Positions 2,056 to 20,434 of a stretch of 22,627 bases of DNA are shown piece after piece (the stretch's first letter is position 1; each line of letters opens with the position of its first letter). The position numbers and the translations under genes are program-made. Location: positions 1 to 22,627 of the forward strand of contig JAEUIR010000051.1 of the NCBI GenBank assembly GCA_016795025.1, written 5' to 3'. The notes under the pieces are model-generated. The model saw nothing but the letters and a program-made list of their open reading frames with translations. It did not search any database and was not told the DNA's origin. Source of the stretch: Phycisphaerales bacterium. GTDB lineage: Bacteria > Planctomycetota > Phycisphaerae > UBA1845 > Fen-1342.

Positions 2056-2199
2056 CAGCGTTCCTCGACGAGTTGGAAAGCGGAGTATGACGGGATTGAC
2101 CGCCGCTGGCGAGTCCCCGGCCGACGGGCGAATTGGAACGAGGCGCGCCGCCGCATACAATCGGGAACGGAGTCGGGAAAAAGAAGGGTTGCATCGCGC

Positions 2200-3390: not shown

Positions 3391-3763
3391 TGGACGAAAG
3401 CGTTTTCGGCCGAAGCAGCGGATTCGAGCCCGCGCGGAGTTTGATGCGGTTTTTCGGAACGGCGTTCGCGTGCAGAATGAATCGCTCACCGTGTGGTTAT
3501 TGCCGGCGGCGGCGGGGCGAGTGGAAACGCGACTTGGGATTGTCGTTTCCCGCAAGCACGGCGGCGCGGTCGCGCGCAATCGATTGAAGCGGCTGATTCG
3601 GGAGGCCTTCCGCATGTCGGCGCGTGAGTTGCCGATCGCCAGCGATATTCTCTGTCAGCCGCGCGCCGGCCGGAAACTCTCGCTCGACGAGGCTTGCGCT
3701 TCGCTGGTGCGCCTCGCGCGGGCGGCGCTGGGCCGGGGTTCGCGGGCTCCACAGGGGCATTGA
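3377..3763 (+). CDS. rnpA: Ribonuclease P protein component
   Basis: MAGDDGRKRFRPKQRIRARAEFDAVFRNGVRVQNESLTVWLLPAAAGRVETRLGIVVSRKHGGAVARNRLKRLIREAFR. This is the classic RnpA RNR-motif region (R-L-G-x-x-V-S-[KR]-K-x-G-x-A-V-x-R-N-R-x-K-R-x-x-R-E). Size is ~128 aa. The start ATG at 3377 overlaps the FIST stop (ATGGCGGGGGATGA). Confidence 0.85.
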   Translation: MAGDDGRKRFRPKQRIRARAEFDAVFRNGVRVQNESLTVWLLPAAAGRVETRLGIVVSRKHGGAVARNRLKRLIREAFRMSARELPIASDILCQPRAGRKLSLDEACASLVRLARAALGRGSRAPQGH

Positions 3764-3769
3764 CGGCAC

Positions 3770-4921
3770 ATGAGCACGAACGGCGCGACGGAACGCCCGA
3801 TTCTAATTCTCTCCGCGTCCGCCGGCGCCGGGCATATGATGGCGGCGCGCGCGATTGAACAAGCGCTGCGCGCGGCGGCGCCGGGGGTGTCGATCGAGGT
3901 TCTGGACGTGCTGAGCGCGGCGAGCGGCGCTTTTCGGCGAATGTATGCCGGCGGGTATTTGTCGCTGGTGCGCCGCGCTCCGGTTCTGATGGGCGTGCTA
4001 TATGAGCGCATGGATCAACCCGTCCCAAACATCGCGGACCGTGCCCGCCTGCTGATTCAGAATGCCCACGCACCGCGCATCGCGCGCTGCATTCGCGCAC
4101 ATCGGCCGCGCGCGATTGTGAATACGCATTTTCTCTCCGCGGAAATCGTGTCGCAGATGCGGCGCAGCGGGGCGCTCAATTGCCCGCAGGCGACCGTAAC
4201 GACGGACTTTGAGACGCACCGCCTGTGGGTGCAAGAGCCGACCGAGCGCTACTTCGCTGCCAGCGAGCAAGGGCGCGTCCTGCTGCGGCGCTGGGGCGTG
4301 GACGATCTGCGCATCCGAGTAACCGGAATTCCTGTAATGGATGCGTTTCGCCCGACGGCGAATCAGAGCGCCGTGCGAACTGAGTTAGGGCTTGATCCGG
4401 CCCGGCCGGTTGTGCTGTTGCTGTGCGGGGGTTTTGGTGTCGGCCCGGTCGCGCTGGCCTTTCAGGAGATTCTGGCGCTGTTGGATACGCAGTTGGTGGC
4501 CGTGTGTGGTCGCAACGAAGCGCTGCGCGAGCGGTTGGCACTGATGTCGAAAGGGGCGGAGTCGCGGTGCAAGGTCGTCGGGTTCACGAACGAGATGCAT
4601 CGATACATGCAAGCGGCCGATGTTGCGGTTACGAAGCCGGGCGGCCTGACATCGAGCGAGGCGCTGGCGTGCGGTTTGCCGATGGTCGTGGTGAATCCAA
4701 TTCCCGGGCAGGAGTCGCGCAACAGCGATTTTCTTCTCGAAAGCGGCGCGGCGATCAAAGCGAACGACGCGTGCCTGGTTGGACCGCGAATCCGCAGCTT
4801 ACTCTCGTCGCCGACACGACTTGCGGCGATGCGCGATGCCGCGCTTCGCGAGGCCCGTCCGGATGCGGCGAGGCAGATCGCCGAGGCGGTCGGGGAAATG
4901 TGCGGTGCGTCGGCCGTTTGA
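3770..4921 (+). CDS. GT28 glycosyltransferase of the UgtP / MGDG-synthase family (processive diacylglycerol glycosyltransferase-like)
   Basis: Colinear similarity to B. subtilis UgtP recalled from memory: ILILSASAGAGHMMAARAIEQAL vs VLILTANYGNGHVQVAKTL; VTTDFETHRLWVQEPTERYFAASE...VTGIPV vs [24 protein letters not shown]...ITGIPI; GGFGVGP vs GGGLGLGP; VTKPGGLTSSEALACGLPMVVVNPIPGQESRNSDFLLESGAAIKAND vs ISKPGGLTVSEALAMNLPMIIFDPIPGQEEANTAFLTESGAAVRADD. The start is 7 nt after the rnpA stop. Confidence 0.8.
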   Translation: MSTNGATERPILILSASAGAGHMMAARAIEQALRAAAPGVSIEVLDVLSAASGAFRRMYAGGYLSLVRRAPVLMGVLYERMDQPVPNIADRARLLIQNAHAPRIARCIRAHRPRAIVNTHFLSAEIVSQMRRSGALNCPQATVTTDFETHRLWVQEPTERYFAASEQGRVLLRRWGVDDLRIRVTGIPVMDAFRPTANQSAVRTELGLDPARPVVLLLCGGFGVGPVALAFQEILALLDTQLVAVCGRNEALRERLALMSKGAESRCKVVGFTNEMHRYMQAADVAVTKPGGLTSSEALACGLPMVVVNPIPGQESRNSDFLLESGAAIKANDACLVGPRIRSLLSSPTRLAAMRDAALREARPDAARQIAEAVGEMCGASAV

Positions 4922-4990
4922 CATTCGGCGGGTGGGTTCAAACAATTGACAACCCGCAAACCGCATTGCCGGGATTGAACGGAGGTCGAT

Positions 4991-5731
4991 GTGCGCTGGC
5001 TTGTCGCCATCCCCGCTTACAACGAAGAGCAGCACCTTCCGGCCGTGCTGGATGCCGTGCGCGAATACACGCGGCACATCGTCGTTATCGACGACGGCTC
5101 GACGGACGCGACCAGCGCGATACTCGACGCGCGGCCGGAGATTCAGCGCGTCACGCATGGAATCAACCTGGGATATGGGCGCAGTGTGATCGATGCATTT
5201 GATTACGCCGCGGCGCATCATTTCGATTGGGTTATCACGATGGATTGCGACGAGCAGCACGAGCCGGCGCAGATTCCGCATTTTGTCGCGGAAATGACGC
5301 GCGATCGCGCGGATGTTATCAGCGGCTCGCGCTATCTGATTCCGCATCCGCAAGATGACGCGGCGCCGCTCGACCGGCGCCGCATCAACCACACGATCAC
5401 GCGCGTATTGATGCAACGACTGGGTTTGCGGCTGACAGACTCGTTTTGCGGTTTCAAGGCGCATCGCGTGTGCGCGATGCAGCGGCTTCGCCTGAGTGAA
5501 ACCGGCTACGCGTTTCCGCTGCAATTCTGGGCGCGGTGCGTGCAGGAAGGATTGCGCATTACGGAGATTCCCGTCAGGCGGATTTATCGCGATGCGTCGC
5601 GCGTCTTCGGCGGCATGCTCGATGATCCCGAACATCGCCTGCGACACTACTTGGAAGTTCTCGAACGCACCATTCAGCAATCGCCCGTGCCGTGCGGCGC
5701 GCGACGCGCAGCATCGGCCGCGTGTCATTGA
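4991..5731 (+). CDS. GT2 glycosyltransferase, Dpm1/Ppm1-like (polyprenyl-phosphate sugar synthase family)
   Basis: GTG start at 4991 with a GGAGG RBS at 4981-4985. VAIPAYNEEQHLPAVLDAV...HIVVIDDGSTDATSAIL (GT2 DxD-region), MDCDEQHEPAQIP (DAD-x-QH-like motif) and ISGSRY all match the Dpm1-type GT2 pattern. The last ~25 residues are low-complexity, so the true C-terminus may be functionally shorter. Confidence 0.7.
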   Translation: MRWLVAIPAYNEEQHLPAVLDAVREYTRHIVVIDDGSTDATSAILDARPEIQRVTHGINLGYGRSVIDAFDYAAAHHFDWVITMDCDEQHEPAQIPHFVAEMTRDRADVISGSRYLIPHPQDDAAPLDRRRINHTITRVLMQRLGLRLTDSFCGFKAHRVCAMQRLRLSETGYAFPLQFWARCVQEGLRITEIPVRRIYRDASRVFGGMLDDPEHRLRHYLEVLERTIQQSPVPCGARRAASAACH

Positions 5732-5817
5732 GCTCGCCCGTGTTGCTGGATCGCAGTCGTCTGAAGACTCCGGCGGGACCGTTGGGGGTTCTCTGCGAAC
5801 CGTCGGCGCTGCGCGAA

Positions 5818-7257
5818 ATGCTCGACGGCAGTGTTGAGGAGTTGCGCGGCAAACCGGAAACGACGCTTGTGAGCGGAAGGCCGCTCAGCGGTTGGCGGAG
5901 CGAGCTGCGTGACGCATTTGGCCTGGTCGAGCCTGCGATCGTCACGGGGCATCAGGTCGAGTTCTACCATGCGGGGGTTTTCGCGAAGGTGGTCGCGGCG
6001 CATCATCTGGCGGAGCGAAGCGGTGGAAGCGCGCTGTTCGTCGGCGTGGACAGCGATACGCCCAAAACCGCGCGCTTGACGACCACGCGCATTTCGCATG
6101 GCGCGGCGCAGCGTGTGGAGGTATTGATTCCCGGCGTTGATATGGACGTGTCAATGGAGGCGCAGGAGGCATTGCCGCGCGAGCAGTGGCTGGAGTTCTT
6201 CGCGCGCGTCGCTGATCTATCGCCGGATTACGAATCGAGCGGGCTTCGCGCATTCGCCGACGGATGGCTGGGCGGCGCAGCGGAGCGCGTCGCGATTTCC
6301 GCGGCGATGTCGCGCGGTCACGAAGGCCTGCAAGACGCTCTGGGCGTGAAGCCTACGCCGCATGTGCCGGTTTCCAGGCTGTGTACGACGCCGGCTTTTT
6401 CCGCGTTTTTTGAGCAAATCGCAATGAACGCCGCACGATTCGCAAAGAATTACAACGCTGCGCAGACAGCGTATCGAGCGCGCCACCGCGTGAGATCGGA
6501 TCAACGTCCTGTTCCGCCGCTGGTCGTGGATTGCGATCAGGTGGAACTGCCGTTTTGGATGATTGACGGCGCAGGCCGGCGAAAGCGGCTGTCATTGGAT
6601 CGCGCGCGCGGTCTGCGAGTAGAAGGCGTTTCAGCCGATATTTCTATTCAAAACGCGCTACGCGGCATTCAGGAAGGCACGCACCGAATTCGGCCGCGAG
6701 CGCTCACGCTGACGCTTTTTTTGCGTTTGTTCGTGGCGGATGCGTTTATTCACGGCATCGGCGGCGCGAAATATGATGAGATTACGGACGAGCTCTCGCG
6801 CGAGTTTTTCGGCGCGGCGGCCGCGCCGATCGCGTGCGTCAGCGCGACGCTAAGCCTGTTCGGCGAGCAGCAGGCATTGGTACCGGATGAGCTCGCGGCC
6901 GCGAGGCTCGCCGTTCGTGATCTGCGGCACAATCCCGAACGGTATGTGAAAGGCATCGACGAGGGGCTGATTGCGGAGCGCGACGAGTTGCTGCGCGAAG
7001 CGGCTCGGCTTCGAGCGAATGACAGGCGAAATCGCGCGGCTCGGCGAGCGATTCACCGGTCGCTGCGGGCCGTACACGATCGCATGCTGGCGGTCCAACC
7101 TTGGTTGGGTTCTTCGCTGACTCAGCGGGTCGAAACGCTGCTTTCTCGCAGCCGCGACGAAAAGTTACGCGCAGATCGTGAGGTTTTTTACGGCTTTCAT
7201 TCGCTTTCGGCCTTGCGAGAATTGGTGAGCGCGATCCGCGGAGCGATCGGCTCGTGA
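5818..7257 (+). CDS. Conserved protein with BshC-like motifs (putative bacillithiol-type cysteine-adding enzyme family) and a C-terminal coiled coil
   Basis: AIVTGHQVEFYHAGVFAKVVAAHHLAE...ALFVGVDSDTPKTARL resembles the BshC N-terminal GQQxGLFxGPLYxxxK ... PVFWIAGEDHD pattern. IRPRALTLTLFLRLFVADAFIHGIGGAKYDEITDEL resembles the BshC LRP...FIGGxxEIxYW block. The C-terminal ~110 residues are strongly helical (RDELLREAARLRANDRRNRAARRAIHRSLRAV...), as in the BshC coiled-coil domain. The motifs are recalled from memory, so family assignment is tentative. The start could alternatively be GTG 5740, TTG 5743 or GTG 5692; the ATG at 5818 was chosen. Confidence 0.45.
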   Translation: MLDGSVEELRGKPETTLVSGRPLSGWRSELRDAFGLVEPAIVTGHQVEFYHAGVFAKVVAAHHLAERSGGSALFVGVDSDTPKTARLTTTRISHGAAQRVEVLIPGVDMDVSMEAQEALPREQWLEFFARVADLSPDYESSGLRAFADGWLGGAAERVAISAAMSRGHEGLQDALGVKPTPHVPVSRLCTTPAFSAFFEQIAMNAARFAKNYNAAQTAYRARHRVRSDQRPVPPLVVDCDQVELPFWMIDGAGRRKRLSLDRARGLRVEGVSADISIQNALRGIQEGTHRIRPRALTLTLFLRLFVADAFIHGIGGAKYDEITDELSREFFGAAAAPIACVSATLSLFGEQQALVPDELAAARLAVRDLRHNPERYVKGIDEGLIAERDELLREAARLRANDRRNRAARRAIHRSLRAVHDRMLAVQPWLGSSLTQRVETLLSRSRDEKLRADREVFYGFHSLSALRELVSAIRGAIGS

Positions 7258-7402
7258 GCGGTAACGGGCGCCGAATTACTGCCGCGATTTTCGCCGCGTC
7301 TTCTCGCAATTAGCGTTTTTTCTCCGGAATTCCGCAGTTGTCTCCGCTATGTGCCGGCAGCAAGATACGCGCACCCAGCAGGTCAAATTTGTGGAGCGGC
7401 GA

Positions 7403-9976
7403 ATGGCGGACAATTCAGCGGGGAATTCCGAGCGCGCCCAGCGAATTGAAGCGATCGTGCGGGAATACATCGAATCCATCGGCGACGCTGCCGCGCCGCG
7501 GATGGAGGAGTTGGTGAAGGCTCACCCCGATCTCGCGCCCGACCTTGAAAATGAGTTGCGCGTCGCGGTCCATCAAACACTGAGCGACTCGACCAACGCG
7601 GCCCCGAACTCAACCACCGTGCTGGCCGCGCCGCCTGGGGTGTCCTCGTCGCCGTTGCCGCCGCCGGGCACGTTCGACGGCTATGACATTGTGAGCGTGC
7701 TGGGGCAAGGCGCGCAGGGCATCGTGTACAAGGCGATCGAGCATCGGCCGCGACGAAAAGTCGCGATCAAAATGCTGACGGACGGCATGCACGCGACGGC
7801 GGAGCGTCGGCAACGCTTTGATCGCGAGATCGAGATCATCGCCCGATTGCAGCATCCGAACATCGTCTCGGTGCTGCGCAGCGGCGAAACGCCATTTCGG
7901 CAGCCGTATTACGTCATGGACTATGTCCGCGGCGCGTCGCTCACGCGTTATGTCCGCGATCAGCAGCTCACAGTGCCCCAGGCGCTGCGGCTGTTTGTGG
8001 AAGTATGCGATACCGTTCAGGCCGCGCATGCCCAGAGCATCGTGCATCGCGATCTCAAGCCGTCGAATATTCTGGTCAGCCTGCACGGTCAGCCGCACGT
8101 GCTGGATTTCGGGCTTGCGAAGGCATTCGGCGAGTCTGAGATGGCGGGCTTGTCGCGAACGTATGAAGTTCGCGGCACGGCGCAATACTTGTCGCCGGAG
8201 CAGGCTCGCGGGGAAAACCACGCGCTCGACGCGCGCAGCGACGTGTATTCGCTGGGGGTGATCCTGTTTCAAATCCTGACGGGAGAGTTTCCGTACCCGG
8301 TGATCGGCTCCTTTGAGAGCGTCTTGCACAACATTCGCGAAACGCCGCCGGCGGCGGCCATGCGGGCGTGGTCGATGGACGGCGGAATCGTCCAGCGCGG
8401 CGAGCATGGCGAAATTCGCAAGGTATGCCCGATCGATCAGCGATTGAATCGCATCGTGATGAAATCCTTGTCCAAGGATCGAAATCGGCGCTATGCGAAT
8501 GCGGGTGAGTTGGCGGCGGACATTCGGCGTTATCTGGCGCATGAACCGTTGGAGGCGGTAGGCGACGGGCCGGTTTTTCGTTCTCGCGCCGGATGGCAGC
8601 GCATGATTCGTCGGCAACCAATCATCGGCTATTTCGCGGCGATGCTCGCGACAGTGCTTGTCGCGCAGTCGCTATTTGTGGATATCGTGTTCTATCGCAC
8701 ATCGCTGAATCAGTTCTTTGAGCAGCGCGCAGTGAAATTTCAGCAGGCTCCGCTAGCGCGAAACGCGCGGCTCGCGCATGTTCAGATTTTGGAAATGCAA
8801 TCCACCCAAAGTGTGATGGAGCTTGCTCGAACTCAGGGAATTTCGATCCCGGAGAGTTTGTCGCCGGCAGAATTTCGGAGCAAAGAGTGGTATCGCATTC
8901 GCGAATTACACGGGCAATTGATGCTGCGCCTGGCTGAGAAAATGCGTGATTGGCGGCCTCGCGCGGTGGTGTTCGACATTTTCTTCAATTCAGCCCGACC
9001 GGAGCAGGACGCGGTGTTCGTGCAGGGCGTGGAAGCGCTGCGCGTGAAAGGCGTGCCCGTGGTAGTCGCCGTCGCGCAGCAACCGCTCGCCGTGAATTCG
9101 ACGCTGGAATCCAGCGAGAACATTCTGCCGAAGGTGTTTCCGGGGGGCGCGTCGACGCATTTGAACGAGCGGCCGTGGCTCTATCACCTGGCCATTCATC
9201 GCGTGGGCCATCGCTCGTTTCCGTCGATCGCGCTGGCGGCGTTTCTGGCGGCGAATTACGCCGATTACACCTACACGCTCACGCCCTATGAAGACAAGCT
9301 GTTGGTAGGGCTGTCGCCGCGCGAGTCGTCGCTGCTGTGGGGTTCGTTGATTCCAATCGCCAGATCGCTGGTGATCGAAGTTGGCGACCATGTTCAACTG
9401 CGAACCGCACCGAAGAAACCAGACGGCACTGCCGCGGGCGATGTTGTTTCCCAATTGCTGATCATCCCGCCGCGACAAAAGTGGTTCGCCACGAGCACGC
9501 TCCCTTACGACACGGTATTTGAAAAGAGTGAGTTGGAGCTGCGCCGACTGTTTGACGACCGTTACGTGTTGATCGGCGATACCGATGGCGATTCCAAAGC
9601 GGGTTATGCGGAGTCGGACGAGGAATACCGCGGATACCATGTACATGCGGTGGCGCTGGAGCAATTGGGGGGCAAGCCGGCGGATGATCGCGTTGTGCTG
9701 GAGCGACGCCTGATCTCGGCCACGGGGTCGGTGACATATCCCGCGCTGGCGGCCGTATGTCTGATCGCCTGTCTGTTCGGTGCGCGCCAGGAAGGCCGGC
9801 CATGGGCGCGCCTGCTGACGGGCGTCGGCGCGTCGCTGGTCATTTTTTGCATTTCGCTCGGACTGGTCGCGATTGCGAATATCGACTTAAATCCGTTTGT
9901 ATTCATCGGCGCATGGTGGATGGCAATGGAACTGGCGGCGGCCGTGCGGCGCACGGCGACGGCCGAGGTCATCTAA
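7403..9976 (+). CDS. Hanks-type Ser/Thr protein kinase with a C-terminal transmembrane CHASE2 sensor module
   Basis: Kinase motifs are all present: LGQGAQGIVYKA (Gly loop), VAIKML (VAIK), HRDLKPSNILV (catalytic loop), DFGLAKA (DFG), LSPEQARG (APE-like) and DVYSLGVILFQILTGEFPY. A TM helix follows (IIGYFAAMLATVLVAQSLFVDIVFY), then a ~300 aa extracytoplasmic region with the CHASE2-like block RPRAVVFDIFFNSARPEQDAVFVQGVEALRVKGVPVVVAVAQ, then 2-3 C-terminal TM helices (YPALAAVCLIACLF, LTGVGASLVIFCISLGLVAIANI, FVFIGAWWMAMELAAAV). The start is set at the ATG at 7403, preceded by GGAG; the ORF-track start at 7349 adds 18 poorly fitting residues. Confidence 0.8.
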   Translation: MADNSAGNSERAQRIEAIVREYIESIGDAAAPRMEELVKAHPDLAPDLENELRVAVHQTLSDSTNAAPNSTTVLAAPPGVSSSPLPPPGTFDGYDIVSVLGQGAQGIVYKAIEHRPRRKVAIKMLTDGMHATAERRQRFDREIEIIARLQHPNIVSVLRSGETPFRQPYYVMDYVRGASLTRYVRDQQLTVPQALRLFVEVCDTVQAAHAQSIVHRDLKPSNILVSLHGQPHVLDFGLAKAFGESEMAGLSRTYEVRGTAQYLSPEQARGENHALDARSDVYSLGVILFQILTGEFPYPVIGSFESVLHNIRETPPAAAMRAWSMDGGIVQRGEHGEIRKVCPIDQRLNRIVMKSLSKDRNRRYANAGELAADIRRYLAHEPLEAVGDGPVFRSRAGWQRMIRRQPIIGYFAAMLATVLVAQSLFVDIVFYRTSLNQFFEQRAVKFQQAPLARNARLAHVQILEMQSTQSVMELARTQGISIPESLSPAEFRSKEWYRIRELHGQLMLRLAEKMRDWRPRAVVFDIFFNSARPEQDAVFVQGVEALRVKGVPVVVAVAQQPLAVNSTLESSENILPKVFPGGASTHLNERPWLYHLAIHRVGHRSFPSIALAAFLAANYADYTYTLTPYEDKLLVGLSPRESSLLWGSLIPIARSLVIEVGDHVQLRTAPKKPDGTAAGDVVSQLLIIPPRQKWFATSTLPYDTVFEKSELELRRLFDDRYVLIGDTDGDSKAGYAESDEEYRGYHVHAVALEQLGGKPADDRVVLERRLISATGSVTYPALAAVCLIACLFGARQEGRPWARLLTGVGASLVIFCISLGLVAIANIDLNPFVFIGAWWMAMELAAAVRRTATAEVI

Positions 9977-9992
9977 CGTTTGGGAGCAGAAA

Positions 9993-10733
9993 ATGCGGCG
10001 AGCTTGCATCATCGTGGCGATGGCTGTTGGATTGATGGCCGTCGGCTGCGCACACGATCGAAAGTTCATTGTGGTCAAGGCTCCGGAAGGCATGGGGTTT
10101 GACACGGAGTTCTTCGCGACGACGGCGGCCGTCCCATCGTCCGGCTGGTTCATCACGGGCGAAGTTTTCAAGGGTTCAGGCAACTCGGTGATGTTCATTG
10201 ATTACACCACCGGCTCAACGTATGGGACTGAAATCACGACGCCCGCGACGTATTCCGCCACCAAACCAACGCAAATGCACGTGATCGGCGGAGGGTTTGA
10301 CTATCACGTCATGCTTGTTCCCGAACCGGGTTTCACCGCGACGATGCAATTGACGTCGCCTTCATCGCCGGCGACTTTTGGCGGGAATTACAATTTTGTT
10401 TACATCCATGGGAATTGGCCGACGACAACCACGACGCACACCACCATCGCGGCTTCCGGCTGTTCGATTCTGGTGCTTGGCCGCGTAAATCCGGTCACGA
10501 CTACGACGTTTGACCAGGTTTTCCTGCTGCGGCAATCCACCGCGGGCGGCGGCGTGAGCATTTCCAAGAATGGCGTTCCCGGGTCATATCTGCTCTCGAC
10601 GATCCGCCACTACGTCGAGGTCATCACCACGACGCCCGTCGCGGATTTTCCAATCCAGAATCTGCCGGCTCTGGATCAGGAGCGTTTCTCAAAATCGGAA
10701 GGCCTGGCGCTGCTGACCAGGACCGGACCGTGA
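9993..10733 (+). CDS. Secreted lipoprotein, paralog 1 of a three-member tandem family of unknown function (Thr-rich core GNWPTTTTTHTTIAASG)
   Basis: Starts at the ATG at 9993 with a GGGAG RBS at 9982-9986, 16 nt after the kinase stop. The N-terminus MRRACIIVAMAVGLMAVGC is a lipoprotein-type signal (lipobox-like AVGC). It shares the core ...NYNFVYIHGNWPTTTTTHTTIAASGCSILVLG with the two downstream paralogs. Confidence 0.6.
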   Translation: MRRACIIVAMAVGLMAVGCAHDRKFIVVKAPEGMGFDTEFFATTAAVPSSGWFITGEVFKGSGNSVMFIDYTTGSTYGTEITTPATYSATKPTQMHVIGGGFDYHVMLVPEPGFTATMQLTSPSSPATFGGNYNFVYIHGNWPTTTTTHTTIAASGCSILVLGRVNPVTTTTFDQVFLLRQSTAGGGVSISKNGVPGSYLLSTIRHYVEVITTTPVADFPIQNLPALDQERFSKSEGLALLTRTGP

Positions 10734-10815
10734 CGATCGTCATTCGGCACGCGCGGCGCTTGATCGCCAAGCGCCGCGCTGCGATGATTGCGGCACACCT
10801 TTTCGGAGTGTCTGC

Positions 10816-11496
10816 ATGATGGGGTCGATGCTTGTCGCCGGGTTGCTCACGCTGCATATGTTGCCCGTGCCGGAAGCGCGAGAGATGATCGATGCTGCGC
10901 AAGTCGCTCCAACCGCTCAAATTCTCGGCTACTTTGAATACAAGCCTGACGGCGTCAGCTTCGAATTCAACCGGCTCGGCACACCCACGGCGTTTCCATT
11001 TGACTCGGTTCAATCGATTCAAAAGCCGACGCAGATTCGCTGTACATCTTCAACATGGGATTACACGCTGCTGATTGTGCCGAAATCCGGGCAACAGCCC
11101 ACGCTAAGAATCGAAAAGGACAACGGTACGCCGGGGCGAGCGATTTTCGGGTCCGGCGTGGATTACATCATTCTCAGCGGCCGCTGGCCGGTGATCGAGA
11201 CGGAGCACACGACTTCCGCGGCGGCCGGCGTGGTCATTGTGGTGTACCCGTTCCAGGACAGCGGCAAGAATTTTGATCGCTATGTGATGTTGCAGCGGAC
11301 CGCCAGCGATGGCATGCTGAAGGCGCGATCGAAAGTGGGGTCGCCGCCGGATCAACAACTGGCTCTGCGCGGAGCGTGCGTAGCGCTTGCCTCCGACGAG
11401 GTGCGGCACTCGCATTTGATGGACGACGAAGCGGTGGACAAATCAGTGGCGAAGATGCGCGGTCTGGGCGCGCTGACGCTGACAATTCCGCCGTAA
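10816..11496 (+). CDS. Secreted protein, paralog 2 of the tandem family (core GRWPVIETEHTTSAAAG)
   Basis: ATG at 10816 with GGAG 8 nt upstream. The hydrophobic N-terminus MMGSMLVAGLLTLHMLPVPEA is a signal-peptide candidate. The core VDYIILSGRWPVIETEHTTSAAAGVVIVVYP aligns with paralogs 1 and 3. The upstream block TQIRCTSSTWDYTLLIVPKSG aligns with paralog 1 TQMHVIGGGFDYHVMLVPEPG. Confidence 0.6.
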   Translation: MMGSMLVAGLLTLHMLPVPEAREMIDAAQVAPTAQILGYFEYKPDGVSFEFNRLGTPTAFPFDSVQSIQKPTQIRCTSSTWDYTLLIVPKSGQQPTLRIEKDNGTPGRAIFGSGVDYIILSGRWPVIETEHTTSAAAGVVIVVYPFQDSGKNFDRYVMLQRTASDGMLKARSKVGSPPDQQLALRGACVALASDEVRHSHLMDDEAVDKSVAKMRGLGALTLTIPP

Positions 11497-11617
11497 TGGC
11501 GATCGGTCGGCTCGGGTCTCATTCACCTGACCAGGCGCGGCCGCATGCTTTTGGAGCTCCGTGTTGTTCTTGTAGCGGCGTATTCTCGGTCAGGCTTTGT
11601 TTGGATTGGAATTGACG

Positions 11618-12238
11618 ATGCTGCGAGCGATCGGACTTTTGATGCTGACGGGGTTGATGGGGGGCATCGCGGGCTGTCCTGGAGCTCTCGATTTGTCGGA
11701 TTGCTGCGACGGTCCGGCGGGATTGGCGACTTTCGCAGTGGATTTTTCGTCGCTCACATCGTCACGGTCGTTTGATGTTGCACTGCCGTCGCGTGTGACA
11801 CTCACAGGCGCCGGCGTGGATTGCGTGATCTGGGTGCTGCCGGCGGACACAGCCGGCGCGAGCGTGATCGTCGAACCAAACGGAAGGGCGCGAATCACTG
11901 GAAACTACTCGGCGATCTACATATCTGGTAACTGGCCTGTGGTGGAAACGACGCACACGACAGCGGCCGCGTCGGGCTTGGTCGGACTGGTGCTGCCGGA
12001 GGCCGCCGAGGGTGGTGAATACGTATACAACGCGGCGCTGCTGGCGGCCGGCGGCACTTTGGGTGTCGGTCCCGCGGCGGATCAGCCGATCGCGCTCGGG
12101 CAGTTTCGTTTCATGACGAATCAGGCGGTGGGGGAGGCCACAGCGCTTTCATCCGTGGAGCCAGGCGGCGGGGCGGTATCGACTCAGATCGCGGCCGTGC
12201 TGGCACAGATCGAATCGTTGGAGGCTCGCGTGGAGTGA
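11618..12238 (+). CDS. Secreted lipoprotein, paralog 3 of the tandem family (core GNWPVVETTHTTAAASG)
   Basis: ATG at 11618; the ORF track starts at a TTG at 11597. The N-terminus MLRAIGLLMLTGLMGGIAGC has a lipobox-like IAGC. The core GNYSAIYISGNWPVVETTHTTAAASGLVGLVLPEA aligns with paralogs 1 and 2. The C-terminal 20 residues are helical (STQIAAVLAQIESLEARVE). Confidence 0.6.
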   Translation: MLRAIGLLMLTGLMGGIAGCPGALDLSDCCDGPAGLATFAVDFSSLTSSRSFDVALPSRVTLTGAGVDCVIWVLPADTAGASVIVEPNGRARITGNYSAIYISGNWPVVETTHTTAAASGLVGLVLPEAAEGGEYVYNAALLAAGGTLGVGPAADQPIALGQFRFMTNQAVGEATALSSVEPGGGAVSTQIAAVLAQIESLEARVE

Positions 12239-12296
12239 GCAGTGCCGCGCGGCAGGCGAATCGTCCGGCGATCGGTATCTCGCCCCATGCTGAGTG

Positions 12297-13454
12297 TTAC
12301 TTGCCCCACTCCGTCGCACGTTCGTTTAGCTCGGTAAGCATCTTCACATAGCTGCGATGACGCCGCGGGCTGATGCGGCCGTCGGCGACGGCGGCGAGTA
12401 TCGCGCAGCCTTCCTGATTCACGTGCAGGCAGTCGCTGAACCGGCATTGCACGACGAGCGGCGCGAATTCGGTGAAGTGCAACTCCAACTCGCCTAGTTC
12501 GAGACGCCACAAATCAAACTGTCGAATGCCCGGAGTATCGACAACGAAGCCTCCGAAGTGCAGCGGCAATAGCTGCGCGTTCGTCGTGCAGTGTCGGCCT
12601 TTTTGATTGGCGTCGCTCACTTCGGCCACGCGCAGGCTCGCGCCGGGCTCGAGCGCATTGATGAGCGAGCTTTTTCCGACGCCGCTCTGGCCGGAAAGCG
12701 CGGTGATGTGGCCGCGCATTTCGTCGCGCAAAGCACCGAGCCCGAGACCGCTGCGCGCGCTGGCGAAAATGCAGGTGTAGCCGATGCCGCGATACTCCTC
12801 GACGAGTTCGGCAATGGTGAGCAGCGGCCCGTCATAGTCGTCATCGTCGTAATCCACCTCGCCGGCGACCAGATCGCACTTGCTGAAGCAAATGATCGGC
12901 CGCAGCTCGCCTTTATGTGCGGCGATGAGATAGCGATCGATGAGGTGCGGCTTGGGTTTCGGCTCAGCGACGGCGGTGACGATGAGCAACTGATCGGCGT
13001 TGGCGACCATGACATGCTCGCGCCCGCGAAAGTCGCGCCGCGATAATCGCGAGCGGCGTTCGTCGACGCGCTCGATGACGCCGGCGCTCTGGCCGGGCGG
13101 AGCGTCGGCGAGTTTTGAGAACCACACGCGGTCGCCGACGATGACGGGGCTGCGTTCATCGATGGACACGGTGCGCAGCTTGCGGCGAATGGTGCAATCC
13201 CAGACAACGTCCCCGGCATGCACGCGGCAGACCAGCCCGTGAACCGCGAGCACGACGCCGCTGGTCCACAGTGCCTCGTCGACCAGTGGGGCGTCGTCGT
13301 CGCCGACGATGATCGTGCGTTTTCTCGAAGCCGCGCCTTTTGACCGGACGCTCTCGTTGCGATCGGCGTCGATTGTTTGGCCGGGCTGGTTGCGGTTTGC
13401 GCGAAAATCGACACGGACTTTACGGCCGGTCTTTTTTTTGCCATGCTTGGCCAT
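12297..13454 (-). CDS. rsgA: Ribosome small-subunit-dependent GTPase A (RsgA/YjeQ)
   Basis: Circularly permuted GTPase order: G4-like CFSKCDL, then G1 LSGQSGVGKSSLINAL, then TTNAQLLPLHFGGFVVDTPG (G2/G3). The C-terminal zinc finger CRFSDCLHVNQEGCAI is typical of RsgA. It has an N-terminal Lys/Arg-rich extension and an OB-fold region. Confidence 0.85.
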   Translation of the reverse strand: MAKHGKKKTGRKVRVDFRANRNQPGQTIDADRNESVRSKGAASRKRTIIVGDDDAPLVDEALWTSGVVLAVHGLVCRVHAGDVVWDCTIRRKLRTVSIDERSPVIVGDRVWFSKLADAPPGQSAGVIERVDERRSRLSRRDFRGREHVMVANADQLLIVTAVAEPKPKPHLIDRYLIAAHKGELRPIICFSKCDLVAGEVDYDDDDYDGPLLTIAELVEEYRGIGYTCIFASARSGLGLGALRDEMRGHITALSGQSGVGKSSLINALEPGASLRVAEVSDANQKGRHCTTNAQLLPLHFGGFVVDTPGIRQFDLWRLELGELELHFTEFAPLVVQCRFSDCLHVNQEGCAILAAVADGRISPRRHRSYVKMLTELNERATEWGK

Positions 13455-13589: not shown

Positions 13590-13991
13590 TTATGGCGCCT
13601 GGCCTTTTGGAAAGTCGCATTTTGAGCATTTTCGCGGGTCGTTGGGTCCGGGGGCGAGTTTGACCACATCACCGTGTGCGGGGCAGCGCTTGCCGCGGAC
13701 GCCCTTGCGCTCGTTGCACTTGGGGCAGCGGTATTTCATCATGCGCGTTTGTGCGTCGCTGTCGTAATCGTTGCGGCGCTGCGCGTCGTCAATCTGCCGC
13801 AATGTCATGTCGAACTGCTGATTGCAACCTTCGCAGACGAACGCGACAGCGCTGTCCGCGTCGTCTGGCGCGGCGTCTTCGATCGAGCTGCCTTTTGTGA
13901 ACAGCCGCCATGCGGCCAATCCGCCGACGAGCACGACAACTCCGGCGAGAACATAGGTTTTGGCTGCGGCGCGCCGAAGATGCCGATTCAT
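13590..13991 (-). CDS. Small membrane-anchored Cys-rich (double zinc-ribbon-like) protein, function unknown
   Basis: From the internal ATG at 13991: MNRHLRRAAAKTYVLAGVVVLVGGLAAWRLF (positive N-terminus plus one TM, giving N-in topology). It is followed by CEGC...CPKC and CPAHG...CSKC, i.e. four CxxC-type pairs. The upstream 71 codons of the 204 aa ORF are low-complexity and were excluded. Confidence 0.4.
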   Translation of the reverse strand: MNRHLRRAAAKTYVLAGVVVLVGGLAAWRLFTKGSSIEDAAPDDADSAVAFVCEGCNQQFDMTLRQIDDAQRRNDYDSDAQTRMMKYRCPKCNERKGVRGKRCPAHGDVVKLAPGPNDPRKCSKCDFPKGQAP

Positions 13992-14751
13992 CCGGTTTGC
14001 TCCATTGACGATGCGGCGGCGAGGATACCGCGCGAGTTGCGAGCGAGCGAGTGGCGGACTGCTTTGCGGAATCATCATGCAGCACGCAAGACGCAGAAGG
14101 AAAGCCGGGTGAGCGGCAAATCGCCGGTCAAGTGCCAAGCAAACCGCATGCCGCGAATTTTGCCATGCGCATCGAAAAGTCACGCAAACTGTGTGCCGCG
14201 CCAAACCGCGACAATGTCTTGGAATAACTCCTCGCCCGCCATGAATGCGCCATATCGAATTACGCTTTTTGTCGATTCTTGGAATCGCTTGTCATGCGCA
14301 TTTGCACCGGCCGAAATATGTGCTAGGTTTCTTCTAGTGACGCTGAATGCCGAATGTCGCGGCGCCGGTCGCCGCGGCAACGGGGAACCCAGGCGCGGCA
14401 CACAGTCGGCCGATCGTCGGTCGGCGCCGCAGGGGCGAATCCGCGACGCATGCGGACGCAAACAGCGATTTGCGAGCCCGTCAGCTAACCTCGTAGGCGC
14501 TACCGCTGGAGCGTTGTTATGCGCATCTCATAGCTCATCCGCGGCCGGGCTTCCCGGCAATCCGTCGAATCAAGCTCTCATCCGAACCGCGCAAGCTGTC
14601 GTTCGGGCGCAGCAGGCGCGCGGAGAGCGGCTTCGATCATCGCCCATCATGACGCAATGGCCGCGCGCCAGCGATGCCGCGCCTCACGCGCGAACGCGGC
14701 CTTCCGCATCGCGGTGCGCTGGCTGAACCGCGAGCGAACGAGGAGCCTGTC
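13992..14751. promoter_or_regulatory. Long (~760 bp) divergent non-coding region between the zinc-ribbon gene and the flotillin gene. Likely carries both promoters and a long 5' leader
   Basis: No protein-like ORF on either strand; the 350 aa + ORF 13674..14726 and the 93 aa - ORF have Arg/Ala/Pro-rich, non-protein-like composition. There is a locally AT-richer patch at 14240-14340 (TTGCAC-16nt-TAGGTT, a weak sigma70-like element). An AGGAG RBS at 14741-14745 precedes the flotillin GTG at 14752. Confidence 0.3.
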
Positions 14752-16821
14752 GTGTTCGCATACACACTGCTGATGTCCGTTGCAGACGGCGTACTTTTGA
14801 CGGTAACGACGATGCTTGGCATGGTCGTTGTCGCCGGCTTGTTGAGCAGTATTCGATACATCCCCAACAACCGCGCGGGCATTGTCGAGAAGCGCTTCAG
14901 CGCGCGCGGCTCGGTGCAGCATGGATTTATCGCGATGAATGGCGAGGCGGGCTTTCAGCCCCATGTGCTGCGAGGCGGTCTGCACCTGTTGATTCCGTTC
15001 CAGTACAAGGTGCACATCGTTCCGCTCGTGACGATTCCGCAGGGAAAAATCGGCTACATCTTCGCCCGCGACGGACGGCCGCTCGCGCCCACGCAGACGC
15101 TGGGCAGCAATGAAAAAGCAAACAGCTTTGAAGATGTCGAGCATTTTTTGCGGAACGGCGGGCAGCGCGGTCCGCAGCGTCAGATTCTGCGTGAAGGCAC
15201 GTACGCGATCAATCTGGCGCAGTTCGCCGTGATCACGGCCAACCACATGTATTTTTTGACGCTGGATCGCGATGACCGTGGCATCTTTCAGAATATGACG
15301 AACGTCATTACGGTGCGCGAAGGCTTCGAGCCGGTGGTGATCAAAGGCGCGGACGACATGTGCGGAATCGTGACGGTTCACGACGGCCCGGCGTTGCCCG
15401 CCGGCGAGATCATTGCGCCGATCGTCGGTCAGAATGCCGAAGAGGCCGAATCGTTTCATAACAATTTTCAGGCTCCGGAGCATTTCATCCGCGCCGGCGG
15501 ATGCCGTGGCCGTCAGCACCAGGTGCTAGTCGAGGGCACGTATTACCTGAACCGGCTGTTCGCGACGGTGGAGCTGATTTCGAAGACCGTTGTCGAAGTC
15601 GGTAATGTCGGCGTGGTGGTGTCATACACCGGCCGCCGCGGCGCTGACTTGTCCGGTGCGGAATACAAACACGGCGAGCTGGTGGAGCAGAATGGCCGCG
15701 GTGTGTGGAAAGACCCACTGATGCCTGGCAAGTATGCGTTCAATACTTACGCGGGCAAAGTCATCATGGTGCCGACGACGAATTTCATATTGAAATGGAT
15801 CCGGAGCGAAAGCGGGCAGCATCGTTACGACGAGAGCCTGAGCGAAGTGTCGCTCATCACGAAGGACGCCTTCGAGCCGTCGTTGCCGCTGAGCGTGGTG
15901 GTGCATATCGACTATCGCAAGGCGCCGCTGGTCATTCAGCGATTCGGCGACGTGAAGCGACTGGTCGAGCAGACGCTCGATCCGATGGTATCGGCGTACT
16001 TCAAGAACATCGGCCAGACGCGCACGCTGATTCAGCTATTGCAGGATCGCGCGATGATTCAAAAGCTGGCCGGCGAGGAGATGCAGGAGAAATTCGCGCA
16101 CTACAACCTGGAGCTTGAAGAAGTGCTAATCGGCACGCCGACTTCGAGCGGCGGCGACCGACGCATCGACGACATCCTGACGCAGCTTCGGCAACGCCAG
16201 ATTGCCGAAGAGCAGGTTGAGACGTATGCGCGCCAGGAAAAAGCGGCGTTGAAGGAACGCGAGCTGCGAGAAGCCGAAGCCAAGGCGCGTCAGCAGCAAA
16301 GCCTGACCGAGAGCGAATTGTCGATTCGCATGCAGGAAAATCAGGGTAAGGCTGAATACCAGCGCGCGATTCAGGAAGCGGCTCGCGTTCGCGCGATGGC
16401 CGAAGCCGAAGCCGCCAGGACTCGCGCGCTGGCCGAAGCTGAAGCGGCCCGCATCCGCGCCGTTGGCGAGGCGGAGGCGGACAAGGCCGCTCGCATCGGC
16501 GTGGCGCAGGCCGTGGCGATCGAGGAGCAGGTGCGCGCGTATGGCGGTCCGCAATATCAGCTTACGCGACAGGTGATGGAGCGCTTCGCCGAGGCGATCC
16601 AGCACTCGGGCGTCGATCTCGTGCCAAAGGTCGTCATCGGTGGCGGCACGAAGGGCGACATGACAAACGGCGGCAATGTGATGGAGGCGCTGTTGACGAT
16701 GTTGTTGTCCGAACGATTCGGCGTGACGCCGGCCGTGACGGACGCCAAGCCGAATCCGCTGGCGGAGCGCATGCGCCAGGATGTACGACAAGTGCTAACG
16801 AACGGCCCGGGGAAAGGGTGA
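14752..16821 (+). CDS. Flotillin / SPFH (band 7) domain protein, FloT/YqiK-like, with an extended Glu/Ala-rich coiled coil
   Basis: N-terminal TM (VLLTVTTMLGMVVVAGLLSSI) followed by IPNNRAGIVEKRFS, the SPFH-start signature. The SPFH body runs to ~residue 430. A long coiled coil with EAEA repeats follows (AEAEAARTRALAEAEAARIRAVGEAEADKAARIG), then the flotillin C-terminal region. The start is taken as the GTG at 14752 with an AGGAG RBS 7 nt upstream. Alternatives are the ATG at 14773 or the ORF-track ATG at 14674. Confidence 0.8.
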   Translation: MFAYTLLMSVADGVLLTVTTMLGMVVVAGLLSSIRYIPNNRAGIVEKRFSARGSVQHGFIAMNGEAGFQPHVLRGGLHLLIPFQYKVHIVPLVTIPQGKIGYIFARDGRPLAPTQTLGSNEKANSFEDVEHFLRNGGQRGPQRQILREGTYAINLAQFAVITANHMYFLTLDRDDRGIFQNMTNVITVREGFEPVVIKGADDMCGIVTVHDGPALPAGEIIAPIVGQNAEEAESFHNNFQAPEHFIRAGGCRGRQHQVLVEGTYYLNRLFATVELISKTVVEVGNVGVVVSYTGRRGADLSGAEYKHGELVEQNGRGVWKDPLMPGKYAFNTYAGKVIMVPTTNFILKWIRSESGQHRYDESLSEVSLITKDAFEPSLPLSVVVHIDYRKAPLVIQRFGDVKRLVEQTLDPMVSAYFKNIGQTRTLIQLLQDRAMIQKLAGEEMQEKFAHYNLELEEVLIGTPTSSGGDRRIDDILTQLRQRQIAEEQVETYARQEKAALKERELREAEAKARQQQSLTESELSIRMQENQGKAEYQRAIQEAARVRAMAEAEAARTRALAEAEAARIRAVGEAEADKAARIGVAQAVAIEEQVRAYGGPQYQLTRQVMERFAEAIQHSGVDLVPKVVIGGGTKGDMTNGGNVMEALLTMLLSERFGVTPAVTDAKPNPLAERMRQDVRQVLTNGPGKG

Positions 16822-20433: not shown

Positions 20434-20434
20434 A

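What the first reader, a model, noticed from the sequence alone, without database searches (positions are those of the whole stretch)
9993..12238. Tandem array of three diverged paralogous secreted/lipoproteins with a conserved Thr-rich 'GNWP-x-ET-HTT-AA-G' core and no recognisable domain
Three consecutive same-strand genes (9993-10733, 10816-11496, 11618-12238) each start with a signal or lipoprotein peptide. They share a clearly alignable core:
- P1: NYNFVYIHGNWPTTTTTHTTIAASGCSILVLG
- P2: VDYIILSGRWPVIETEHTTSAAAGVVIVVYP
- P3: NYSAIYISGNWPVVETTHTTAAASGLVGLVLP
P1 and P2 also share a second block about 45 residues upstream: ...DYHVMLVPEPG vs ...DYTLLIVPKSG. Outside these blocks they are highly diverged, which points to an old duplication or diversifying selection. 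I cannot assign the conserved motif to any family I know. The HTT/Thr-rich run could mark a ligand or metal site, or O-glycosylation sites; a PMT-like glycosyltransferase and a Dpm1-like enzyme are encoded nearby. The first paralog starts 16 nt after a receptor Ser/Thr kinase, suggesting a functional unit.
Basis: seen in the sequence. Interest (0 to 1): 0.8.

Follow-up and report, generated by a model that had tools for sequence, protein, structure and literature searches.

The report
Three FecR-like lipoproteins beside a kinase
Three old, well-conserved sister genes for exported (mostly lipid-anchored) proteins sit directly behind a membrane sensor kinase in a few uncultured Phycisphaerales; no sequence database recognises them, but their predicted fold matches the periplasmic signalling domain of FecR-type regulators, so they are probably partner proteins of the sensor.

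Summary
Three same-strand genes (9993-10733, 10816-11496, 11618-12238) encode paralogues: pairwise BLASTP E is 4e-13 to 9e-16. All 13 family members share the motif G-x-W-P-x3-T-x-H-T-[T/S]-x2-A-x-G. The genes are real and under purifying selection (dN/dS 0.06-0.27). The duplications predate the split of five lineages, and every known copy lies just downstream of the same Ser/Thr kinase with a CHASE2 periplasmic sensor domain.

By sequence the family is an orphan. Pfam, NCBIfam and PADLOC give no hit. A search of 1.84 billion representative proteins finds only the three paralogue clusters, and scans of GTDB genomes and JGI metagenomes find nothing.

Published work describes FecR-domain proteins encoded next to CHASE2 sensors in other bacteria. 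My best reading is that these are membrane-tethered periplasmic co-sensors of the CHASE2 kinase, a divergent variant of a known pairing. Diversifying selection and the O-glycosylation idea are not supported. Interest is moderate.

The parts
7349..9976 (+). Receptor Ser/Thr kinase. It has an N-terminal cytoplasmic kinase domain (aa 112-382), a TM helix at about aa 424-449, a periplasmic CHASE2-like domain (Pfam match aa 512-774) and a C-terminal multi-TM bundle (aa 788-855). NCBI calls an 857-aa product, which starts 18 codons later.
   Evidence: Pfam Pkinase E 1.2e-46; CHASE2 E 2.2e-7, 31.1 bits against a cut-off of 26.3. Hydrophobic segments. Orthologues in L001, L004 and L006 have the same domains.
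9993..10733 (+). P1, 246 aa, predicted lipoprotein. It has a P1-specific N-terminal region (aa 20-85) and the shared beta core (aa ~85-200).
9993..10049 (+). P1 signal peptide ending in the lipobox-like LMAVG-C (Cys19 at 10047-10049).
   Evidence: Hydrophobic window aa 1-22. The [AV]GC sequence is conserved in all five P1 orthologues.
10410..10460 (+). P1 copy of the family motif G-N-W-P-TTTT-T-H-T-T-I-A-A-S-G (aa 140-156). It is followed by the P1-specific conserved Cys157.
   Evidence: Invariant columns in 13 sequences. The sequence was read directly.
10816..11496 (+). P2, 226 aa. It has an uncharged hydrophobic N-terminus (aa 1-21, no Cys) and is probably secreted or N-terminally anchored. 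It carries the shared beta core.
   Evidence: ORF. Orthologues at 58-75% identity in L009, L001, L004 and L006. dN/dS 0.10-0.27.
11179..11229 (+). P2 copy of the family motif G-R-W-P-VIE-T-E-H-T-T-S-A-A-A-G (aa 122-138).
11618..12238 (+). P3, 206 aa, predicted lipoprotein. It has the shared beta core (aa ~37-165) and a C-terminal amphipathic helix (aa 186-205).
11618..11677 (+). P3 signal peptide ending in GIAG-C (Cys20 at 11675-11677).
   Evidence: Hydrophobic window aa 2-20. The G-C-P sequence is conserved in all three P3 orthologues.
11927..11977 (+). P3 copy of the family motif G-N-W-P-VVE-T-T-H-T-T-A-A-A-S-G (aa 104-120).

Best explanation
P1, P2 and P3 are exported proteins of the cell envelope. 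P1 and P3 are lipid-anchored through an N-terminal Cys; P2 is secreted or N-terminally anchored. They are co-transcribed with, and work with, the upstream Ser/Thr kinase, whose sensing part is a periplasmic CHASE2 domain.

Each protein carries a beta core of about 120 residues that most likely adopts the twisted beta-solenoid-like fold of the juxta-membrane (CJM, 'FecR') subdomain of FecR/PupR-type periplasmic signal transducers. It lacks their cytoplasmic anti-sigma domain, their TM helix and their C-terminal STN subdomain.

In other bacteria, secreted or outer-membrane FecR-domain proteins are encoded next to CHASE2 histidine kinases and CHASE2 adenylate cyclases. By analogy, I propose that the trio forms a membrane-tethered periplasmic co-sensor. 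It would bind the CHASE2 domain, alone or as a hetero-oligomer, and switch the kinase in response to an envelope or external cue.

The only segment invariant across all paralogues is G-x-W-P-x3-T-x-H-T-[T/S]-x2-A-x-G. This is the candidate contact or ligand site.

Shown: gene reality, paralogy, purifying selection, strict kinase linkage, export signals, and CHASE2 plus the kinase topology.
Predicted: the FecR-like fold.
Inferred: physical interaction with CHASE2, and the direction and nature of the signal.
For: (1) Paralogy: E 4e-13 to 9e-16.

(2) Three clean orthologue clades whose internal branching mirrors each other. dN/dS is 0.06-0.27, the same range as the kinase at 0.11-0.26.

(3) Every family member found anywhere lies directly downstream of the orthologous Pkinase+CHASE2 gene. 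This holds in the window, L009, L001, L004/L005 and L006-L008. Downstream flanks differ between loci (RsgA against CBS/PilZ), so the linkage is to the kinase side.

(4) The family and the kinase's sensor half are restricted to the same few lineages.

(5) Conserved lipobox-like Cys in P1 and P3, and hydrophobic N-termini in all three.

(6) The kinase has a TM helix, about 340 periplasmic residues with a CHASE2 hit above the Pfam gathering score, then C-terminal TM helices.

(9) Literature on the pairing:
- Burkholderiales operon of response regulator, LysM/FecR protein, CHASE2 histidine kinase and DUF4136 protein (PMC5192318).
- Campylobacterota CHASE2 adenylate cyclases clustered with a FecR-domain outer-membrane protein (PMC9239204).
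- S. meliloti CHASE2 cyclases activated through the outer-membrane protein NsrA (PMC13001267).
Against: - No sequence method links the family to FecR. Pfam finds nothing even at E<=10 for all 10 members. hhalign against a FecR/PupR/BDI_1681 profile gives probability 0.1-0.2%, although that FecR profile was shallow (Neff ~2.5).
- Foldseek of the P3 model against the PDB returned no hit with E<=0.001 and no FecR-family entry among the 50 hits listed.
- The most conserved motif is modelled differently and with low confidence in the two models.
- The CHASE2 assignment is only about 5 bits above threshold.
- No interaction, expression or localisation data exist.
- Synteny comes from closely related lineages and could partly reflect shared ancestry rather than functional coupling.
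Confidence: 0.45

Rival explanations
1. The three proteins are lineage-specific structural or housekeeping envelope lipoproteins (for example outer-membrane or peptidoglycan-associated). They merely share an operon or neighbourhood with the kinase. Their fold is new or only superficially FecR-like, and they do not regulate the kinase.
For: - No sequence relationship to any family.
- Foldseek finds no FecR hit.
- Model confidence is moderate.
- The conserved synteny extends upstream to unrelated genes (FIST, rnpA, two glycosyltransferases) in the same close relatives. Gene order here is therefore partly just phylogenetic inertia.
Against: - The 16-nt spacing to the kinase stop, with no promoter-like site in 7000-12600.
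- Kinase linkage holds in all five lineages while the downstream flank changes.
- The family and the kinase sensor domain share the same narrow taxonomic restriction.
Confidence: 0.3
2. One reading: the Thr-rich HTT run marks O-glycosylation sites. These would be served by the PMT-like (18358-20682, - strand) and Dpm1-like GT2 (4991-5731) enzymes, making the trio glycosylated surface proteins.
For: - A PMT_2+TPR protein and a GT2 with a polyprenyl-phosphate-sugar synthase-like profile (PpgS E 3e-27, below cut-off) are in the window.
- P1 is 14% Thr.
Against: - The Thr residues sit in an invariant motif with W, P, H and G inside the predicted beta core, not in a variable, disordered Ser/Thr/Pro tract.
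- P2 and P3 are only 7% Thr.
- The PMT-like gene is 6 kb away on the other strand. No PMT gene is called within 10 kb of the trio in L001, L004 or L006.
- The GT2 is separated from the trio by a 521-aa gene and the kinase.
Confidence: 0.05
3. The proteins are substrates of the adjacent kinase, with the TxHTT threonines as phospho-acceptors.
For: Adjacent to a Ser/Thr kinase, with invariant Thr residues.
Against: - All three have N-terminal export signals, two of them with a lipobox Cys.
- The kinase catalytic domain lies N-terminal to the first TM helix, which I take to be the cytoplasmic side. Enzyme and putative substrate would then be in different compartments.
Confidence: 0.03

Closest known systems
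FecR/PupR-type sigma regulators: periplasmic C-terminal cell-surface signalling domain, CJM subdomain (Pfam FecR PF04773; PDB 6ovk/6ovm, 4m0h/4m0n)
   Different: - No detectable sequence similarity.
- No N-terminal anti-sigma domain (DUF4880), no TM helix and no C-terminal STN/DUF4974 subdomain.
- Anchored by a lipid rather than a TM helix.
- No ECF sigma factor or TonB-dependent transducer gene was seen among the ORFs examined in the window.
- No Gly-Thr self-cleavage site. The family has its own invariant WP...T-x-H-T-[T/S]...G motif.
- Present as two or three tandem paralogues.
CHASE2-associated FecR-domain proteins: COG4254 LysM+FecR proteins in the Burkholderiales RR/LysM-FecR/CHASE2-HK/DUF4136 operon, and FecR-domain outer-membrane proteins next to CHASE2 adenylate cyclases in Campylobacterota
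   Same: Secreted protein(s) with a FecR-type domain (here only predicted) are encoded immediately beside a CHASE2 transmembrane sensor. In Burkholderia a further uncharacterised (DUF4136) protein is in the operon (PMC5192318; PMC9239204).
   Different: - The output domain here is a Ser/Thr kinase placed N-terminal to CHASE2, not a C-terminal histidine kinase or cyclase.
- No LysM domain, no beta-barrel and no PF04773 hit.
- Gene order is sensor first, then partners.
- The partners are triplicated.
- The family is restricted to a few Phycisphaerales lineages.
NsrA / CHASE2 cyclases CyaD1, CyaD2, CyaK of Sinorhizobium meliloti
   Same: This is an experimentally supported precedent. A CHASE2 sensor receives its signal through a separate envelope protein rather than directly (PMC13001267).
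   Different: [quoted passage not shown] I could not read the primary paper, so I did not verify its domain content. The output is cAMP, not protein phosphorylation.

Membership tests
FecR domain family (Pfam PF04773) | Sequence match to the PF04773 profile at or above the gathering score | tested here: not met
   No Pfam hit for P1-P3 at E<=1. None for any of the 10 members at E<=10.
FecR domain family (Pfam PF04773) | Profile-profile similarity to bona fide FecR proteins (E. coli FecR, PupR, BDI_1681) | tested here: not met
   hhalign probability 0.1% and 0.2% with a 13-sequence family profile. The FecR profile was shallow (8 sequences), so sensitivity was limited.
FecR domain family (Pfam PF04773) | Three-dimensional fold of the CJM subdomain (two 7-stranded sheets, twisted beta-solenoid-like) | tested here: inconclusive
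FecR-type anti-sigma regulators (cell-surface signalling) | N-terminal cytoplasmic anti-sigma domain (DUF4880), single TM helix, C-terminal STN/DUF4974 subdomain, and an adjacent ECF sigma factor and TonB-dependent transducer | tested here: not met
   No PF16220 or PF16344 hits, whereas true FecR homologues carry them. The proteins are 206-246 aa with only an N-terminal signal sequence. No sigma-70 or TonB-receptor domain turned up among the window ORFs scanned with Pfam.
FecR-type anti-sigma regulators (cell-surface signalling) | Gly-Thr autoproteolytic site (present in FoxR/FecR, not universal) | tested here: not met
   FecR has ALGTEFTV. The family has A-[SA]-G followed by C (P1), V (P2) or L (P3). 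Structural equivalence of these positions could not be checked.
CHASE2-associated FecR-domain accessory proteins (COG4254-like) | Encoded adjacent to, and on the same strand as, a CHASE2 transmembrane sensor gene | tested here: met
   CHASE2 hit in the kinase. P1 starts 16 nt after its stop codon. The arrangement is the same in L001, L004, L005, L006 and L009.
CHASE2-associated FecR-domain accessory proteins (COG4254-like) | LysM domain plus FecR domain recognisable by sequence | tested here: not met
   No Pfam domains at all.
Bacterial lipoproteins | Signal peptide ending in a lipobox with an invariant Cys | tested here: met
   P1 has ...LMAVG-C19 and P3 has ...GIAG-C20. The Cys is conserved in all orthologues. 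This rests on inspection only, because no SignalP or LipoP tool was available. P2 lacks the Cys, so the feature is not met for P2.
PMT-type O-mannosylated proteins | Disordered Ser/Thr/Pro-rich acceptor region and conserved linkage to a PMT gene | tested here: not met
   The motif lies in the predicted beta core. Thr is 7% in P2 and P3. No PMT gene is called near the trio in L001, L004 or L006. Actual glycosylation cannot be tested here.
Anti-phage defence systems (PADLOC) | Match of the accessory genes to a defence-system model | tested here: not met
   There is no PADLOC hit for P1-P3. The kinase hits (PD-T4-6, mad6) cover only the generic kinase domain.

The most novel reading that the evidence does not exclude
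The trio is a previously undescribed, heteromeric lipoprotein co-receptor for a CHASE2 sensor. Its invariant W-P-x3-T-x-H-T-[T/S] segment would be a functional site of a new kind. One possibility is a cis-autoproteolytic or acyl-shift site, analogous to the Gly|Thr self-cleavage of FoxR/FecR or the His-x|Ser/Thr sites of GAIN/Nup98-type domains. In that case P1's conserved Gly-Cys157 would be a second candidate. Another possibility is a metal or ligand site.

If true, this would give the first mechanistic handle on how a CHASE2 domain receives its signal. CHASE2 ligands are still unknown.
Probability: 0.12. Interest if true: 0.7.

Novelty: new variant of a known kind. Interest (0 to 1): 0.4.

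Why it matters
The papers I read state that the signals recognised by CHASE2 domains are unknown (PMC5192318). The recurring co-encoding of FecR-domain envelope proteins, and the NsrA precedent, suggest that CHASE2 receives its input through partner proteins.

This locus would extend that pairing in three ways. It would add a third output class (a Ser/Thr kinase) and a distant phylum (Planctomycetota, Phycisphaerales). It would also add partners so diverged that only structure prediction sees them, present as 2-3 co-evolving paralogues.

If confirmed, two things follow:
- Sequence-based surveys undercount the CHASE2-FecR-like partnership.
- The small, soluble partner proteins and their sharply conserved motif give a tractable system for binding and structural studies.

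If the fold call is wrong, this is simply a very rare lineage-specific family of envelope proteins of unknown function.

Tried and rejected
- Sequence family searches. Pfam, NCBIfam and PADLOC on the three proteins, and Pfam on all 10 members, found nothing.
- PDB sequence search with the family profile. It gave only weak hits to antibody light chains (best E 0.0025), aligned over the signal peptide and a 'PSRFSGSGSGTDFTL'-like strand. I judged these spurious.
- Exhaustive HMMER over 1.84 billion representatives. It found only the three paralogue clusters. Three further weak hits were found; the two I retrieved (P0013, P0014) are repetitive sequences that I judged spurious, and the third (P0012, 2632 aa) matched only in four short stretches and was not retrieved.
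- hhalign against a FecR/PupR/BDI_1681 alignment, in local and greedy modes. No signal. The FecR homologue search returned only close relatives (>=64% identity), so the profile stayed shallow.
- Foldseek against the PDB with the P3 model. No significant hit. The afdb50 library was unavailable.
- Genome and metagenome scans. Scans for the kinase sensor half and for the family in GTDB genomes found nothing. The JGI metagenome scan for the family also found nothing. A homologue search with the sensor half returned only the same lineages. tblastn of the sensor half against plasmids gave no match. I therefore could not test whether more distant CHASE2 kinases carry a recognisable FecR gene in the same position.
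- Promoter and terminator scan of 7000-12600. Nothing above the shuffle expectation.
- Diversifying selection. Rejected from dN/dS.
- Pseudogene fragments. Rejected: reading frames are intact in all lineages and under purifying selection.
- The primary NsrA paper was not available.
Full report

Yes. The window has three consecutive + strand ORFs at 9993-10733 (P1, 246 aa), 10816-11496 (P2, 226 aa) and 11618-12238 (P3, 206 aa). These lengths equal the NCBI gene calls JNG88_07225, _07230 and _07235 of a 'MAG: Phycisphaerales bacterium'.

The three proteins are paralogues well beyond chance. BLASTP gives E 9e-16 (P1/P2, 28% over 163 aa), 5e-15 (P1/P3, 36% over 84 aa) and 4e-13 (P2/P3, 31% over 131 aa). 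The second shared block (D-Y/C-x-hydrophobic-x-P) is present in all three.

P1 starts 16 nt after the stop codon of an 875-codon ORF. That ORF encodes a Ser/Thr kinase domain (Pfam Pkinase E 1.2e-46) followed by a CHASE2 domain (31.1 bits, gathering score 26.3).

**2. Are they real genes, and how old is the array?**

A profile search of 5.8 billion clustered proteins found just ten members. Look-ups of their contigs gave four further lineages: L009, L001, L004/L005 and L006-L008. All are Logan assemblies of public sequencing runs. All have the order kinase -> P1 -> P2, followed by P3 in L009 and L001 but not in L004 or L006.

A neighbour-joining tree of all 13 proteins gives three clean clades, P1, P2 and P3. 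The lineage groupings are the same in each clade (window+L009; L004+L006). The duplications therefore predate the divergence of these lineages, which share about 50-60% amino-acid identity.

Nei-Gojobori dN/dS between orthologues is 0.06-0.20 for P1, 0.10-0.27 for P2 and 0.19-0.20 for P3. This is the same range as the kinase, at 0.11-0.26. The genes are under purifying selection. The idea of diversifying selection is not supported, and they are not pseudogene fragments.

**3. Anatomy.**

P1 and P3 begin with a hydrophobic segment that ends in a Cys: LMAVG-C19 in P1 and GIAG-C20 in P3. The Cys is conserved in every orthologue, as expected for lipoproteins. This rests on inspection only, because no dedicated predictor was available.

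P2 has a conserved but uncharged hydrophobic N-terminus without a Cys. It is probably a signal peptide or an anchor.

Twelve columns are invariant across the 13 sequences. Eight of them lie in one 17-residue stretch: G-x-W-P-x3-T-x-H-T-[T/S]-x2-A-x-G (P1 residues 140-156). All five P1 orthologues have a Cys directly after the final Gly. P2 has Val there and P3 has Leu.

The kinase has a hydrophobic helix at about aa 424-449, about 340 residues containing the CHASE2 match, and further hydrophobic helices at aa 788-855. This is the usual CHASE2 topology, with the kinase domain N-terminal to the first helix (presumably cytoplasmic).

**4. Sequence-level identity: none.**

- Pfam and NCBIfam give no hit at E<=1, and PADLOC gives none at E<=0.01.
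- Pfam on all ten members at E<=10 gives nothing relevant.
- An exhaustive HMMER profile search of 1.84 billion representative proteins returns only three true clusters, one per paralogue. Three further weak hits also appear; the two I retrieved (P0013, P0014) are repetitive sequences that I judged spurious.
- Pattern scans of 185,579 GTDB species genomes and of JGI metagenomes find no relative.
- A PDB sequence search gives only marginal hits to antibody light chains, which I regard as spurious.

The family is thus a genuine, very narrowly distributed orphan at the sequence level. The kinase's sensor half is equally restricted.

**5. Fold-level identity: FecR-like, with caveats.**

The AlphaFold2 model of P1 used the 10-sequence alignment. 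Its mean pLDDT is 55, and its core (aa 81-180) mostly scores 64-77. The P3 model has mean pLDDT 66, with 80-89 for aa 41-100. Both show an all-beta core.

| Model | 6ovm_R (PupR C-terminal cell-surface signalling domain) | 4m0h_A (putative anti-sigma factor BDI_1681) | Next best hit | Call |
|---|---|---|---|---|

Against this:
- Foldseek of the P3 model against the PDB finds nothing significant.
- hhalign of the family against a FecR/PupR/BDI_1681 profile gives probability 0.1-0.2%.
- The two models share one shallow alignment.
- The conserved motif is modelled with low confidence, and differently, in the two models.

I put the FecR-like fold at about 60%.

**6. Why that matters for function.**

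FecR-type domains are periplasmic signal relays. Independently of my fold result, the literature describes FecR-domain proteins encoded next to CHASE2 sensors:
- A Burkholderiales operon of response regulator, LysM+FecR protein (COG4254), CHASE2 histidine kinase and DUF4136 protein (PMC5192318).
- CHASE2 adenylate cyclases of Campylobacterota, clustered with a FecR-domain outer-membrane protein, a phosphodiesterase and a TPR protein (PMC9239204).
- In S. meliloti, the CHASE2 cyclases respond to a plant protein signal through the outer-membrane protein NsrA (PMC13001267).

The present locus fits this pattern: a CHASE2 sensor, here with Ser/Thr-kinase output, followed by two or three exported proteins with a FecR-like core.

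**7. Proposed mechanism (confidence about 0.45).**

The trio is a membrane-tethered periplasmic co-sensor. It binds the CHASE2 domain and gates the kinase. The invariant motif is the likely contact or ligand site.

- Shown: paralogy, selection, strict linkage, export signals, and the kinase domain content and topology.
- Predicted: the fold.
- Inferred: the interaction and the signal.

Rivals:
- Envelope lipoproteins functionally unrelated to the kinase (about 0.3).
- O-glycosylated Thr-rich proteins (about 0.05). The motif is in the folded core, P2 and P3 are only 7% Thr, and no PMT-like gene is called near the trio in L001, L004 or L006.
- Kinase substrates (about 0.03), which would be in the wrong compartment.

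**8. Comparison with known families.**

It works like the CHASE2-associated FecR-domain accessory proteins. It is not a demonstrable member of PF04773, because both sequence tests failed.

It is clearly not a FecR-type anti-sigma regulator:
- It has no anti-sigma domain, TM helix or STN subdomain.
- No ECF sigma factor or TonB-dependent transducer turned up among the window ORFs I scanned.
- It has no Gly-Thr site.

It differs from the COG4254 type in lacking LysM, in being lipid-anchored, and in being present as 2-3 paralogues.

**9. Novelty and score.**

I rate it a new variant of a known kind of system. It is an undescribed, extremely rare protein family that probably represents a highly diverged form of the FecR-like partner of CHASE2 sensors, now with a Ser/Thr kinase in Planctomycetota.

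Interest is 0.4. It is a useful data point for the open question of how CHASE2 senses, but it is not startling, and the key link is a moderate-confidence structure prediction.

The most novel reading not excluded is that the invariant H-T-[T/S] (and P1's Gly-Cys) marks a self-processing or ligand site of a new co-receptor class. I give this a probability of about 0.12 and an interest of about 0.7 if true.

Noticed in passing
window 14331-14514 (+): A c-di-AMP riboswitch (Rfam RF00379, 52.5 bits against a gathering score of 38, E 9e-10, full-length). It lies about 160 nt upstream of a 715-aa SPFH/Band 7 protein gene (14674-16821, +). I do not recall SPFH/flotillin-like proteins among the usual targets of this riboswitch.
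   Followed up: no
window 5692-7257 (+); L001 5768-7264; L004 5472-7031; L006 5584-7125: A conserved protein of about 500-520 aa directly upstream of the kinase. It has no Pfam, NCBIfam or PADLOC hit in any lineage, so it is another orphan that may belong to the same unit.
   Followed up: partly
window 1666-7257 (+); L001, L004, L006 upstream halves: The gene string FIST sensor, rnpA (RNase P protein), MGDG-synthase-like glycosyltransferase (diglucosyl-DAG synthase profile E 3e-63, below cut-off), GT2 (PpgS-like, E 3e-27), 500-aa hypothetical, then kinase is conserved in all long related contigs. The window's FIST ORF (574 aa) is much longer than the orthologues' 395 aa, so its true start is probably later.
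   Followed up: partly
L004 11544-11687; L006 11650-11783: The L004/L005 and L006-L008 lineages lack P3 altogether. Only about 130-140 nt separate P2 from a convergent CBS-domain gene. The system therefore works with two paralogues there. P2 in these lineages carries a 7-residue Gly-rich insertion (NAAGGGT) before the core motif.
   Followed up: partly
window 10461-10463 (P1 Cys157): All five P1 orthologues have a Cys immediately after the invariant Gly of the family motif (A-S-G-C). P2 has Val and P3 has Leu at this position. It recalls the Gly|Thr self-cleavage site of FecR/FoxR-type proteins, but structural equivalence could not be checked.
   Followed up: no
window 18358-20682 (-): A PMT_2 (dolichyl-phosphate-mannose protein mannosyltransferase-like) domain fused to many TPR repeats. 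No such gene is called within 10 kb of the trio in L001, L004 or L006.
   Followed up: partly
window 13590-14204 (-): A 204-aa ORF with several CxxC pairs (CEGC...CPKC...CSKC), resembling zinc ribbons, and a hydrophobic segment. It has no Pfam or NCBIfam hit and lies just upstream of the riboswitch region, on the opposite strand.
   Followed up: no
window 7349-9976 (+): The kinase's sensor half (aa 401-875) has no detectable relatives outside the same few lineages that carry the trio. This held in the 5.8-billion-protein word-index search, the GTDB genome scan and the plasmid tblastn. The CHASE2 call itself is only about 5 bits above the Pfam threshold.
   Followed up: yes
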